From NCBI RefSeq assembly GCF_029227855.1, contig NZ_CP074356.1: 64,000 nucleotides of DNA. One strand, written 5' to 3'. Of this stretch, positions 54,001 to 60,000 are shown in pieces. Source of the stretch: Escherichia coli. Its GTDB lineage: Bacteria; Pseudomonadota; Gammaproteobacteria; Enterobacterales; Enterobacteriaceae. Position numbers: made by a program. Position 1 is the first letter of the stretch. Every line of letters begins with the position of its first letter.

Positions 54001-57000
54001 TTCTGGTCATTCACCTCAATTAATATTATTCCATACCCTGCGGGGACATCTTACTATAATATTTATTGATGAGTGATTATGACCAATATTAATACAGCTT
54101 GTGTAAAAAATAATGCCAGTTATCAATTAAATAACGCATTACCTAACAAAGAAACCATCTCCAGCAATTTTTGTGAACGACTGGCACAATGGGGTAATAA
54201 GTCGCTTAATAATGGTGAAGAAAGAGCTATTGCCGTAGAGCGAATTAAAGAAGCTTACAATTCGAACATGGCATCTCTTGATTTGTCATATCTTGATTTG
54301 AGTGAGTTACCGCCTATCCCCTCGACAGTTAACACGTTAAATCTGGAAAAAAATTGTCTCACTTGTCTTGACTTTACTGACAATGCCAGCCTCGTCAATA
54401 TCAACCTCAGCTTTAATAAAATTAAAACGATAACCTTTCCAAATGAATCAAAACTGGAAAATATTTATATTGATCACAACAATCTGGAAAATTTGGATTT
54501 AAAAAATCAGCATTCATTGGTTAACCTGGAAGCGCAAAATAACAACCTGACAAAAATTAATATTTCTGATAGTTATAAACTGAAATTTCTTAATCTTGAT
54601 TATAACAAGCTAGCATCGCTGGATCTCTCCCGGCAAGAATCTCTGATTGAGTTAAGTGCCCATCACAATATGATCACTGACCTTATATTACACAATCATC
54701 CCAGGATGAAAAAAATCACTTTAAACGACAACCATATTGCACATTTAAACGCGAAAAACCACTACAAAACTGGAATATTTAAACTTAAGCAATAACAATT
54801 TATTGCCAACAGATGACATTGATCAATTAATATCATCAAAACATCTTTGGCATGTATTAGTTAACGGCATCAACAATGATCCACTTGCCCAAATGCAGTA
54901 CTGGACTGCAGTAAGAAATATAATTGATGACACTAATGAAGTGACCATTGAATTATCTTATAATCTGGCAATCACAAATATCGATACCAGCGATGAACAT
55001 CTTGTAGAAGTAAGCGAGAATTCCGAAGGAAATCATATAAAAGACAATGACTCAATGTCTATTCGTTATAGATCAAAATATTATTCCAGAGAGTACGCTT
55101 TAATAGAAGAAGAAACAATATTTTCTGACGCAGAACTAAAAGCCATTCTGCCTATGCATCGCATGTACGGGGTTGGTGACTATAAGTCAAATTCCTCTTC
55201 TCTACCCTCACACTCGGGGCTAAAGGACCCAACGGGCACACCCGTCTGTTATTATATTCATAATGAGGATAAACCTTCCTTAGGTTATGGTTCAACACCC
55301 AATAATTGGTTAAGCCAATCCTTTTCTACAGAGTTATAAAACACATCCTGATTTATCAAGGATAATAAATCATTAAAATAAAGCATTACTACGGAGCAGT
55401 TATGAAATTCCCTTCAATATTTAATAAAATAAATCCACAATCCATACAGCAACATCCAGAAAAAAATGAACTTAACTGGATGCGCGAATTAAATAAATGG
55501 AAAGCAGAACGCATACTTACAGGTGAAATCCATCGTCCGGAATGCCGAAACGAAGCCGCTAAAAGGATAAATTGTGCTTTTTTGTCGAAACAGAATGATA
55601 TTGATTTATCAGGGCTTAATTTAACTACTCAACCACCAGGACTGCAAAACTTCACCTCTATCAATCTTGATGAGAACCAACTCAAACATTTTGATGCAAC
55701 CACCTACGATAGACTCATCAACCTTAGTCTGAATAGTAATGCTCTTGAGTCAATAAATTTTCCTCAAGGTAGAAATGTAAGCATTACACATATATCTATG
55801 AATAATAATTCTCTCAGAAATATTGATATAGATAGGCTTTCATCAATTACTTATTTTAGTGCGGCACATAATCAACTAGAGTTTGTGCAATTAGAATGTT
55901 GCGAAAGGCTGCAGTACCTGAATCTCAGCCACAATCAATTAACTGATATTGTTGCAGGAAATAAAGATGAACTCTTACTTCTGGATCTATCCCATAATAA
56001 ACTAACAAGTTTACATAATACCTTTTTTCCCAACTTGAATACGTTACTTATCAACAACAACTTGCTTTCTGAAATTAAAATATTCTTTAGCAACTTCTGC
56101 AATATTCAGACATTAAACGCTGCGAACAATCAGTTGGAAAAAATAAACCTTCATTTCCTGACTTATCTTTCATCTATCAAAAGTTTAAGGCTGGACAATA
56201 ATAAAATAACCCGCATTGACACTAAGAATACGTCCGATATTGGAACTTTATTCCCCATAATAAAACAGAGCAAAAACTTAAATTTTTTAAATGTTTCTGG
56301 GAAGAACAATTGCCCTACTATCCAGCTCATGTTATTTAATTTATTTTCCCCAGCACTTAAGCTTAATACTGGCCTGGCAATTCTTTCGCCTGGTGCATTT
56401 GAAGTTCACTCTGACGGAGTAGATGTGGATAACGAATTGTTTCACTATACTATTAAAGAAGCATATACCCCATATAATATACACACTTATAAACAGAAGA
56501 AGTTGTAAATCAGATGAATATAAAAATTAAAAATATGACATTAGATTGAAATAACAATACTTACTGTAATAACGATTATTACAATGAGGCGATAAGAGAG
56601 GAACCGATAGACTTTCTGGACAGATCGTTTTCCTCCAGCTCATGGCCTTTTCAGTGAATAAATCATCACTAATTCTATAAGTGTCTGGTCTTGTTAAAAA
56701 TATAAACCCTTTGGATTCATCATCTGAAGGGTTGGATCATGACATGCATACATAGCTTAACATCCGTTTAATGGTTAGCTTGTTAGTTACATTTAGTAAC
56801 ACATATCTGTCTGTTTAATCCCCATTCTGCCCCCGCGGTTACGCTTTCTTATCTATTCTTTCAATCAGCACTTCACCCAATTCATCCTTAATTCTAATAA
56901 CTGGCTATTGCGCCTTACCTCTGTTTTGTCTTTTTTCATTACCAATGTGTACATGTGAGGAACAATATGGCACTGCAAAATGAGAAAACTAGTCGTTATC

Positions 57001-60000
57001 TTTTGCGCGACTGGAAACCAGAAATCCGGCCTTCTGGGAAAATAAAGGAAAACATATTGCTCGAAGAAACCTCTGGATATCAGTCAGTTGTCTACTTCTT
57101 GCCTTCTGTGTCTGGATGCTATTAGCGCAGTTACTGTTAATCTCAATAAAATCGGTTTTAATTTCACTACCGATCAACTCTTTTTATTAACCGCATTACC
57201 CTCCGTTTCTGGCGCATTATTGCGTGTCCCCTACTCCTTTATGGTGCCTATATTGGTGGACGCCGATGGACGGTTTTTAGTACTGCAATCCTGATTATTC
57301 CTTGCGTCTGGCTCGGAATTGCCGTGCAGAATCCGAATACTCCTTTTGGGATATTTATCGTTATCGCTTTGCTATGCGGTTTTGCAGGTGCGAACTTTGC
57401 TTCGAGCATGGGCAATATCAGTTTCTTCTTCCCAAAAGCCAAACAAGGGAGCGCACTTGGGATTAATGGCGGATTAGGAAACTTAGGTGTAAGTGTGATG
57501 CAGCTGGTTGCACCGCTGGTCATTTTGTACCCGTATTTGCCTTTCTCGGCGTCAATGGCGTACCGCAGGCCGACGGTTCGGTGATGTCGCTGGCGAATGC
57601 CGCATGGATTTGGGTGCCATTACTGGCGATTGCCACGATCGCCGCCTGGTCATGGATGAATGATATCGCCAGTTCACGCGCGTCAATTGCCGACCAGCTG
57701 CCAGTGTTACAACGCCTGCATCTCTGGCTGCTGAGCCTGCTTTACCTTGCCACCTTCGGTTCGTTTATCGGTTTTTCTGCGGGTTTTGCCATGCTGGCGA
57801 AAACTCAGTTCCCTGATGTGAATATTCTGCGCCTGGCGTTCTTTGGCCCATTTATTGGTGCCATCGCGCGGTCGGTTGGTGGTGCTATTTCCGATAAATT
57901 CGGCGGCGTGCGGGTGACGTTGATCAACTTCATTTTTATGGCGATTTTCAGCGCCCTGCTGTTCCTTACCTTACCGGGCACAGGCTCCGGTAATTTCATC
58001 GCATTTTACGCCGTATTTATGGGGTTGTTTCTGACCGCAGGTCTGGGAAGTGGTTCTACTTTCCAGATGATCGCCGTCATCTTTCGCCAGATAACCATTT
58101 ATCGGGTGAAGATGAAAGGCGGTAGTGATGAGCAAGCTCAGAGAGAAGCCGTCACCGAAACGGCGGCGGCTCTGGGCTTTATCTCAGCCATTGGCGCAGT
58201 GGGCGGCTTTTTCATTCCGCAGGCGTTTGGCATGTCGCTCAATATGACCGGCTCTCCGGTAGGCGCGATGAAAGTGTTTTTAATCTTCTACATCGTTTGT
58301 GTGCTGCTGACCTGGCTGGTTTATGGTCGGCGGAAGTTCAGCCAAAAATAAAAGATCGATGCCTGACACGTCTTATCAGGCTACAACCGTGTCGCACCCG
58401 ACAAGGCATCAGATCCCAATTCATTCCTGGAGCAGGAGTTATGTCATGAGTAAACTTTTGGATCGCTTTCGCTACTTCAAACAAAAGGGCGAAACCTTTG
58501 CCGATGGTCACGGACAGGTGATGCATAGCAACCGCGACTGGGAGGACAGCTATCGCCAGCGTTGGCAGTTCGACAAAATCGTGCGTTCCACCCACGGTGT
58601 TAACTGTACAGGCTCCTGTAGCTGGAAAATCTACGTTAAAAATGGTCTGGTGACCTGGGAAATCCAACAGACCGACTACCCGCGCACCCGCCCTGACCTG
58701 CCCAATCATGAACCTCGCGGCTGCCCGCGTGGCGCAAGTTACTCCTGGTATCTTTACAGCGCTAACCGCCTGAAATACCCGCTCATTCGCAAACGACTGA
58801 TTGAACTGTGGCGCGAAGCCCTCAAACAACACAGCGATCCGGTACTGGCGTGGGCATCGATTATGAACGATCCGCAAAAGTGCCTGAGCTACAAACAAGT
58901 GCGTGGGCGCGGCGGGTTTATCCGCTCCAACTGGCAGGAACTAAACCAGCTGATTGCCGCCGCTAACGTCTGGACCATCAAAACCTACGGCCCGGATCGC
59001 GTTGCCGGTTTCTCGCCGATCCCGGCGATGTCGATGGTTTCTTACGCCGCCGGAACACGTTATCTTTCACTATTAGGTGGCACCTGTTTAAGCTTCTACG
59101 ACTGGTATTGCGACCTGCCGCCCGCCTCGCCGATGACCTGGGGCGAGCAAACCGACGTACCGGAATCTGCCGACTGGTATAACTCCAGCTACATCATCGC
59201 CTGGGGGTCTAACGTACCGCAGACACGTACGCCGGACGCCCATTTCTTTACCGAAGTACGCTACAAAGGCACTAAAACCATCGCCATTACCCCTGACTAC
59301 TCTGAAGTGGCCAAATTGTGCGACCAGTGGCTGGCACCAAAACAAGGCACTGATAGCGCCCTGGCGATGGCAATGGGCCATGTGATTTTAAAAGAGTTTC
59401 ATCTCGATAATCCCTGCGATTATTTTATCAACTACTGCCGCCGCTACAGCGACATGCCGATGCTGGTAATGCTGGAACCTCGCGACGACGGCAGCTACGT
59501 TACCGGGCGCATGGTCCGCGCATCTGACCTGGTGGATGGACTGGGCGAAAGCAACAATCCGCAGTGGAAAACCGTGGCGGTTAATACCGCAGGTGAACTG
59601 GTGGTGCCGAACGGTTCGATTGGTTTTCGCTGGGGAGAAAAAGGCAAATGGAATCTTGAATCCATTGCCGCCGGTACGGAAACCGAATTGTCGTTAACTC
59701 TGCTCGGTCAACATGATGCCGTTGCAGGCGTGGCCTTCCCCTACTTTGGCGGCATTGAAAATCCGCATTTTCGCAGCGTAAAAAACAATCCTGTCCTGGT
59801 GCGTCAATTACCCGTTAAAAACCTGACATTAGCCGATGGCAGCACCTGTCCGGTGGTCAGCGTTTATGATTTGGTACTGGCGAATTACGGCCTCGATCGC
59901 GGGCTGGAAGATGAAAACAGCGCGAAAGATTACGCTGAAATCAAACCGTACACCCCAGCCTGGGGTGAGCAAATTACCGGCGTGCCGCGCCAGTATATTG

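What the first reader, a model, noticed from the sequence alone, without database searches (positions are those of the whole stretch)
56967..58351. narU broken four times while narY stays intact
A NarK-family transporter gene of normal length is split across four frame shifts, yet each fragment translates into the expected conserved sequence and the SD and start codon are preserved. Together with the narZ lesions, this strain as sequenced would lack nitrate reductase Z and NarU transport, which in K-12 are functional stationary-phase/stress isoforms.
Basis: partly seen in the sequence, partly recalled or inferred. Interest (0 to 1): 0.5.

Follow-up and report, generated by a model that had tools for sequence, protein, structure and literature searches.

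The report
narU frameshifts are likely sequencing errors
The four breaks in the nitrate transporter gene narU are really in this sequence, but they belong to a 9.5-kb stretch of one-base length errors found in no related E. coli, so they are most likely uncorrected sequencing mistakes and not a real gene loss.

Summary
narU (56967-58351) is 1385 nt instead of 1389. narZ carries three more lesions and narY is intact.

The biological reading does not hold. Compared with the nearest complete genome (JNEC-KY178), all 14 indel events of the 64-kb window fall within 53140-61717. There are none in the other 55 kb.

All 14 indels, plus three transversions, are private to this record. They are absent from seven near-identical independent assemblies, from two more distant E. 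coli (042 and an ENA assembly), and, for the six narU-area deletions, from the best match among 5,402 complete genomes. Putting one base back into each of four runs makes narU 1389/1389 nt identical to seven assemblies.

The tract ignores gene borders. It breaks a porin gene, two leucine-rich-repeat (LRR) protein genes, narU and narZ, and it hits intergenic DNA. narY simply lies 462 bp beyond the last lesion.

Fourteen indels against three substitutions, all at 1-7-nt runs or a GC repeat, 11 of them deletions, is the signature of residual long-read or low-coverage consensus error. It is not the signature of gene decay. Verdict: not a real feature (about 0.88). Read mapping or PCR would settle it.

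The parts
52167..61717 (.). Tract of 17 changes private to this record: 14 indel events and 3 transversions, 1.78 per kb. This is the real unit behind the finding.
   Evidence: Whole-window alignment to JNEC-KY178. Changes polarised against 7 close assemblies, strain 042 and L007. Density.
56967..58351 (+). narU coding region, 1385 nt instead of 1389, split over shifting frames by four -1 deletions.
   Evidence: After repair it is 1389/1389 nt identical to narU of 7 assemblies.
57022..57024 (+). narU lesion 1: AAA here, AAAA in all relatives.
57122..57123 (+). narU lesion 2: TT here, TTT in all relatives.
57253..57254 (+). narU lesion 3: TT here, TTT in all relatives.
57523..57526 (+). narU lesion 4: TTTT here, TTTTT in all relatives.
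56921..56936 (+). Two further -1 deletions in the non-coding leader upstream of narU: C at 56921 (CC in close relatives) and T6 at 56931-56936 (T7 in relatives).
58446..62182 (+). narZ coding region, 3737 nt instead of 3741. It has a GC deletion after 61088 (GCGC to GC), a -1 at 61183-61184 (AAA to AA) and a -1 at 61718 (CC to C). It also carries the private transversion 59502, which gives Thr353 where relatives have Pro.
62179..63723 (+). narY, intact at 514 aa. It lies outside the tract and its product is identical to a very widespread allele.
52808..53909 (+). Porin gene (annotated ompC in relatives), broken by a +1 at 53140-53142 (GGG here, GG in relatives). It also carries the private transversion 53344.
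54079..55339 (+). First leucine-rich-repeat protein gene (419 aa in relatives), broken by a +1 at 54754-54758 (A5 here, A4 in relatives).
55402..56657 (+). Second leucine-rich-repeat protein gene (418 aa in relatives). A -1 at 56491-56493 truncates it to 368 aa, followed by a +1 at 56546-56547 and a -1 at 56553-56554.
51668..52549 (+). yddG, intact, but carrying the first private change of the tract: transversion 52167, giving Tyr167 where relatives have Phe.

Best explanation
The four narU frameshifts are not biological. They belong to a roughly 9.5-kb stretch (52167-61717) of the deposited chromosome whose consensus was never properly corrected. The likely cause is a locally low-coverage or unpolished piece of a long-read or hybrid assembly, such as a contig end, a circularisation overlap or a long-read bridge. 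Consensus errors of that kind are mostly one-base miscounts of short runs, usually deletions, with a few miscalled bases. Wherever they fall in a coding region they shift the frame. The result is five apparently broken consecutive genes (a porin, two leucine-rich-repeat protein genes, narU and narZ), while genes just outside the stretch (yddG upstream of 52167, narY, narW) read normally. The real strain most likely has the same intact narU and narZ as its near-identical relatives. What is shown: the lesions exist, are private, are positionally clustered and are all run-length changes. What is inferred: they are technical, and by which technical route they arose.
For: 1. Localisation: against JNEC-KY178 the window has 0 indels in 1-53139 and in 61718-64000, but 14 indel events in 53140-61717. 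P is about 6e-11 under uniform placement.
2. Privacy: all 14 indels and 3 transversions are absent from 7 near-identical independent assemblies (one complete genome, GCA_017075055.1 and five Logan assemblies of separate sequencing runs) wherever those assemblies cover the site, from 042 (except one upstream deletion that BLAST did not flag there) and from L007. The best of 5,402 E. coli genomes with a match still shows all six narU-area gaps. Nine of the ten broken-gene products looked up are absent from about 15 billion proteins.
3. No decay: after one base is restored in each of four runs, narU is 1389/1389 nt identical to 7 assemblies. Repaired NarZ differs by one residue.
4. Spectrum: 14 indels against 3 substitutions. 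Real E. coli mutation gives about 10-12 substitutions per indel (PMC6330053 Table 1), so the binomial P is 1.4e-12. Eleven events are deletions and three are insertions. All 14 sit at mononucleotide runs of 1-7 nt or a GCGC repeat, with median run length 3. All 3 private substitutions are transversions.
5. The tract ignores gene borders and function. It hits five genes and also the narU leader.
6. Literature: nanopore data give systematic homopolymer indels, usually deletions, which truncate reading frames, and hybrid assemblies show concentrated stretches of errors (bioRxiv 10.1101/2021.11.07.467652). Residual homopolymer-length errors remain where short-read polishing fails (PMC8812927).
7. 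The source is a single 4,870,650-bp contig with GenBank proteins WEP38667.1, WEP38679.1 and WEP38697.1. That is a complete-chromosome assembly of the kind normally built from long reads.
Against: No reads, quality values or assembly metadata could be seen, so the technical cause is inferred and not shown. The rest of the window (55 kb) has no indel at all, so the assembly is otherwise well corrected, and I cannot say why this stretch alone escaped. There are no repeats of 40 nt or more inside the tract that would explain a polishing failure. Many errors sit at very short runs (1-3 nt), which is less typical of well-covered nanopore consensus and points instead to low coverage. The three private substitutions show no Dam or Dcm motif context (read by eye). 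Privacy is only moderately powerful evidence, because the lineage is rare: eight contigs in the whole protein collection carry its NarU allele.
Confidence: 0.88

Rival explanations
1. Real, very recent localised hypermutation. A single event of error-prone DNA synthesis, for example break-repair or gap-filling by DinB (Pol IV) or Pol V, copied about 9.5 kb with a high rate of -1 frameshifts. This left a mutation shower that truly inactivated five adjacent, dispensable genes.
For: The changes are tightly clustered. They are dominated by -1 events in runs plus transversions, which from general knowledge qualitatively resembles a DinB/Pol V spectrum (not tested here). All five broken genes are non-essential accessory functions. 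The rest of the window is clean, so a genome-wide quality problem is not evident.
Against: Seventeen changes in 9.5 kb (1.8 per kb) is, from my own knowledge of stress-induced mutagenesis rates, orders of magnitude above any bacterial mutational process I know of per event. Three +1 events and a dinucleotide deletion are mixed in. The lesions also hit intergenic DNA. No relative carries any subset of them. The same pattern is the textbook signature of consensus error.
Confidence: 0.05
2. Ordinary evolutionary gene decay. The lineage no longer needs nitrate reductase Z and NarU, and it has accumulated inactivating frameshifts under relaxed selection while narY is retained.
For: narU and narZ are both hit and belong to one operon. 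Accessory respiratory isoenzymes can be lost in some host-restricted lineages (general knowledge).
Against: There are zero substitutions in narU and one in narZ against seven assemblies. Fourteen indels under neutral decay would be expected to come with roughly 140 substitutions (ratio). Multiple hits occur per gene although one is enough to inactivate it. Three unrelated neighbouring genes and intergenic DNA are hit at the same density. No lesion is shared with any relative. narY lies outside the tract, so its intactness needs no selective explanation.
Confidence: 0.03
3. Real mutations from a mismatch-repair-deficient (mutator) background, which raises homopolymer frameshift rates.
For: The lesions are run-length changes.
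Against: Mutator effects are genome-wide, yet 55 kb of the window has no indel. Mismatch-repair-defective spectra are dominated by transitions (abstract of bioRxiv 10.1101/346874, listed), whereas the three private substitutions are all transversions. Slippage favours long runs, yet most hits are in runs of 2-4 nt, and none of the 7 runs of length 6 and only 1 of the 5 runs of length 7 is hit.
Confidence: 0.01
4. Regulated recoding or phase variation. narU would be expressed through programmed frameshifting or transcriptional slippage, or switched on and off by repeat-length changes.
For: The start codon and Shine-Dalgarno sequence are preserved, and every fragment keeps the NarU sequence.
Against: Four separate shifts in 500 nt would all need recoding. 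The runs are 2-4 nt long, with no slippery heptamers and no long contingency repeats. Close relatives and the listed best matches among 5,402 E. coli genomes have a single annotated narU frame with fixed run lengths.
Confidence: 0.01

Closest known systems
False pseudogenes from residual homopolymer-length errors in long-read or hybrid bacterial assemblies (bioRxiv 10.1101/2021.11.07.467652; Polypolish paper PMC8812927; also Kastor, PMC12007338, seen by title only)
   Same: One-base run-length errors predominate, with deletions more common than insertions and indels far more common than substitutions. The frames of otherwise perfectly conserved genes are broken. The errors are concentrated in a stretch and are private to one record.
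   Different: In the cited benchmarks, concentrated stretches were mainly at repeats (rRNA operons, prophages). This tract has no internal repeat of 40 nt or more. The sequencing platform of the source record is unknown to me.
E. coli NarU, the NarK-family nitrate/nitrite transporter (PDB 4IU8/4IU9; NCBIfam NF011608), and the narU-narZYWV locus
   Same: After repair the product is a full-length NarU of 462 aa. It scores 1015.6 bits against a cutoff of 836 and matches 4IU8 at E = 1e-299. Synteny with narZ, narY and narW is the same.
   Different: As deposited, the frame is interrupted four times. The longest fragment (256 aa) scores 542.8 bits, below the cutoff.
Genuine multi-lesion pseudogenes of host-restricted enterobacteria such as Shigella (general knowledge)
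   Same: Several adjacent genes carry frameshifts.
   Different: Real decay shows substitutions, IS insertions and deletions, and its lesions are shared within clades. Here there are no accompanying substitutions and no sharing, and the distribution is strictly positional.

Membership tests
NarU (NarK-family nitrate/nitrite MFS transporter) | Full-length match to the NarU model NF011608 above its curated cutoff (836 bits) | tested here: met
   The repaired product (identical to P0092) scores 1015.6 bits over positions 1-462 of 462. As deposited, no single fragment passes: 542.8, 139.9, 86.5 and 20.2 bits.
NarU (NarK-family nitrate/nitrite MFS transporter) | Closer to NarU than to NarK, and located directly upstream of narZYWV | tested here: met
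   PDB 4IU8 (NarU) scores 997 bits, against 771 bits for NarK 4U4T and 4JR9. The neighbours are narZ, narY (annotated narH) and narW.
Genuine evolutionary pseudogene | Lesions shared by close relatives or clone-mates | tested here: not met
   None of the 14 indels appears in any of the 7 near-identical assemblies where they cover the site. The best match among 5,402 complete genomes still shows all six narU-area gaps.
Genuine evolutionary pseudogene | Substitutions accumulate along with indels, about 10:1 in E. coli | tested here: not met
   There are 3 substitutions against 14 indels in the tract and 0 substitutions in narU. The ratio comes from PMC6330053. P = 1.4e-12.
Genuine evolutionary pseudogene | Lesions follow gene or function boundaries and not a positional tract | tested here: not met
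   Five unrelated adjacent genes and non-coding DNA are hit at a similar density. There is nothing outside 52167-61717.
Genuine evolutionary pseudogene | Lesions supported by the raw reads of the isolate | not testable with these tools
   No read data are available. The source record could not be fetched.
Residual consensus-error tract of a long-read or hybrid assembly | Errors are mainly run-length indels, with deletions outnumbering insertions | tested here: met
   All 14 indel events are at runs or a dinucleotide repeat. Eleven are deletions and three are insertions.
Residual consensus-error tract of a long-read or hybrid assembly | Changes private to one record, with the underlying sequence otherwise identical to relatives | tested here: met
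Residual consensus-error tract of a long-read or hybrid assembly | Low coverage, missing polishing or a contig-end position at the tract in the source assembly | not testable with these tools
   Only the contig length (4,870,650 bp) and protein accessions of the source are known.
Phase-variable contingency locus or programmed frameshift | A long simple repeat or slippery site, conserved or length-polymorphic among relatives | tested here: not met
   The narU runs are 2-4 nt long, and their lengths are invariant in all relatives examined.

The most novel reading that the evidence does not exclude
The lesions are real and record a single localised mutation shower in a natural E. coli isolate: about 17 changes, mostly -1 frameshifts, laid down over 9.5 kb by one episode of error-prone repair synthesis, knocking out five adjacent accessory genes at once. 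That would be a kataegis-like event of a density not documented in bacteria.
Probability: 0.04. Interest if true: 0.75.

Novelty: not a real feature. Interest (0 to 1): 0.06.

Why it matters
As biology it most likely does not matter. The strain probably has normal NarU and nitrate reductase Z.

It matters as a data-quality warning. One deposited complete E. coli chromosome carries a roughly 9.5-kb patch with about 1.8 errors per kb. That patch turns five intact genes into pseudogenes in its annotation. Pseudogene counts, pangenome presence/absence calls or metabolic inferences (for example loss of the stationary-phase nitrate reductase) drawn from this record would be wrong.

The case also gives a cheap recipe for recognising such patches without reads:
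- many indels and few substitutions;
- changes at runs;
- changes private to one record;
- positional clustering that ignores gene borders.

Tried and rejected
1. Independent copies of the broken alleles. Exact look-up of ten fragment products among about 15 billion proteins found nine absent. The only one present is a generic 140-aa NarZ C-terminal piece that also occurs in other truncated or partial narZ calls, so it is uninformative.

2. Fetching the source record. I tried through its private YddG and YdeP alleles, to see its coordinates and whether the tract lies at a contig end. Neither was on record in the position index. Only the contig length and accessions are known.

3. A repeat-based explanation for failed polishing. 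There are no direct or inverted repeats of 40 nt or more in 51000-63000. Paralogues elsewhere in the genome could not be examined.

4. Methylation-motif context (GATC, CCWGG) for the three private substitutions. None was seen by eye in the contexts, so there is no support for a nanopore methylation artefact specifically.

5. AT-richness as the sole driver. Eleven of the 14 indels lie where G+C in 300-bp bins is about 0.32-0.54, mostly below 0.45 (53.1-57.6 kb), but three lie in narZ at about 0.55. Composition alone does not explain the tract.

6. Decay, mutator, recoding and phase-variation readings. All were rejected for the reasons given under the rival explanations.

7. Metagenome and genome DNA-pattern scans were not run. 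The lineage is so rare that they would have little power beyond.
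Full report
**What is in the sequence.**
- The region 56967-58351 begins with an ATG preceded by GAGGAA and ends at the normal stop. It has no single open frame. The frame from the ATG stops at 57123, and the list of open frames shows pieces of 56, 68, 86 and 256 aa in shifting frames.
- The pieces match the NarU model NF011608 over profile positions 1-21, 40-98, 121-195 and 207-462.
- The neighbours are narZ, narY (annotated narH) and narW.

**Comparison with other E. coli.**
- A search of 5,426 complete E. coli genomes found narU in 5,402. The best hit is strain JNEC-KY178, where 1,501 window bases align to 1,507 record bases. All six differences are bases missing from the window.
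- The whole 64-kb window is colinear with that genome. It differs by 11 substitutions and 14 indel events covering 15 bases.
- Every indel lies between 53140 and 61717. There is none in 1-53139 or in 61718-64000. If 14 events were placed uniformly, the chance that they all fall within 8.6 of 64 kb is about 6e-11.

**Whose changes are they?**
- The intact NarU allele of this lineage (P0092) is encoded on eight contigs in public assemblies. I fetched GCA_017075055.1 (L015) and Logan assemblies of five separate sequencing runs (L016-L019, L021).
- The window was scored against these, JNEC-KY178, strain 042 and another assembly, wherever each covers the site. All 14 indel events and three substitutions (52167, 53344, 59502, all transversions) are found only in the window. 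BLAST did not flag the 56921 deletion against 042.
- Two other differences from JNEC-KY178 (51755, 61328) are ordinary polymorphisms that the window shares with L015, L017 and 042.
- The window therefore equals its relatives plus 17 private changes confined to 52167-61717, at 1.78 per kb.
- Nine of the ten broken-gene products looked up do not occur among about 15 billion public proteins.

**Nature of the changes.**
- All 14 indel events change the length of a mononucleotide run of 1-7 nt or of a GCGC repeat. Eleven are deletions and three are insertions. The median run length is 3.
- In narU the changes are A4 to A3, T3 to T2, T3 to T2 and T5 to T4. Two more (CC to C, T7 to T6) lie in the leader, 31-47 nt upstream of the ATG.
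- Putting one base back into each of the four coding runs makes narU 1389/1389 nt identical to narU in seven assemblies. Repaired NarZ differs from L015 NarZ by one residue, from the private transversion at 59502.
- The tract also breaks three other genes: a porin gene (+1 at 53140-53142), the first leucine-rich-repeat protein gene (+1 at 54754-54758) and the second (-1, +1, -1 at 56491-56554).
- narY starts 462 bp after the last lesion. Its intactness needs no special explanation.

**Why this is not gene decay.**
- In E. coli mutation-accumulation lines, base substitutions outnumber small indels 10-12 to 1 (PMC6330053 Table 1).
- Here indels outnumber substitutions 14 to 3, with binomial P = 1.4e-12, and narU has no substitution at all.
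- One frameshift kills a gene. Four in 500 nt, three in narZ and three in one leucine-rich-repeat gene, all absent from clone-mates, would require many independent and extremely recent events restricted to one 9.5-kb stretch.
- A mutator background would act genome-wide and give mainly transitions. Recoding or phase variation would need conserved slippery sites or long repeats, and none is present.

**What it most likely is.**
- The pattern is that of residual consensus error: run-length miscounts, mostly deletions, a few miscalled bases, private to one record, clustered by position and blind to gene borders.
- Nanopore data give systematic homopolymer indels, usually deletions, that truncate reading frames, and hybrid assemblies can show concentrated stretches of errors (bioRxiv 10.1101/2021.11.07.467652). 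Residual homopolymer-length errors remain where short-read polishing cannot work (PMC8812927).
- The source is a single 4,870,650-bp contig whose private YdeP, DosP and YddG alleles are GenBank WEP38667.1, WEP38679.1 and WEP38697.1.
- The RefSeq protein numbers minted from the source run consecutively from yddG (WP_275877214) to yddE (WP_275877215, seen). No new number exists for NarU or NarZ, even though these alleles were still new to RefSeq when JNEC-KY178 was annotated (WP_471724185 and WP_471724186). I infer that the source annotation already treated them as pseudogenes.

**What remains unknown.**
- I could not see reads, coverage or assembly method, and I could not fetch the source record.
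- I cannot say why only this stretch is bad. It holds no internal repeat of 40 nt or more. Low G+C fits 11 of the 14 indels but not the three in narZ.
- A real localised mutation shower is not strictly excluded, but its density would be unprecedented. I give it about 4-5%.

**Verdict.** The gene identification is right, and the biological interpretation is not supported. The finding is most likely a local sequencing or assembly artefact (confidence about 0.88). Interest is low. Read mapping, or PCR and Sanger sequencing across 56.9-57.6 kb and 61.0-61.8 kb, would settle it.

Noticed in passing
window 48389-51436, minus strand: fdnG appears as two open frames (803 aa and 195 aa) separated by an in-frame stop. 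Some relatives have it called as one 1015-aa product, others as the same two pieces, and their DNA shows no difference here. This is consistent with the known selenocysteine TGA codon of formate dehydrogenase-N alpha (my own knowledge; I did not read the stop codon itself), not with a lesion.
   Followed up: partly
window 52600-56900: There is an AT-rich block (G+C 0.29-0.47) between yddG and narU. It carries a porin gene and two tandem leucine-rich-repeat protein genes. Only 1,113 of 5,426 complete E. coli genomes cover at least 80% of the 10.5-kb query that includes it, so it is a variable accessory segment.
   Followed up: partly
L001 3771-4058 (JNEC-KY178), equivalent to window ~54670-54958: In JNEC-KY178 the first leucine-rich-repeat gene is annotated only as a 288-nt partial pseudogene. 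Yet its differences from the window across that gene are the same as those of L015, where a 419-aa product is called. This looks like an annotation inconsistency in the reference, not a sequence difference.
   Followed up: no
window 11987 and 33791: Two nonsynonymous changes lie outside the tract: YdeP His108 where JNEC-KY178 has Arg, and DosP Pro454 where it has Gln. Both are private to the source record, each allele being on one contig only among about 15 billion proteins. They may be real strain SNPs or isolated errors.
   Followed up: partly
window ~46193-46651, minus strand: An IS200C-family transposase gene lies between yddM and fdnI, at the same place as in JNEC-KY178. This was inferred from the gap-free alignment and not examined further.
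   Followed up: no
window 56546-56554: A +1 and a -1 lie only 6 nt apart (T to TT, AAA to AA) near the 3' end of the second leucine-rich-repeat gene. A local base mis-placement of this kind is typical of consensus noise and is hard to explain as two independent mutations.
   Followed up: partly
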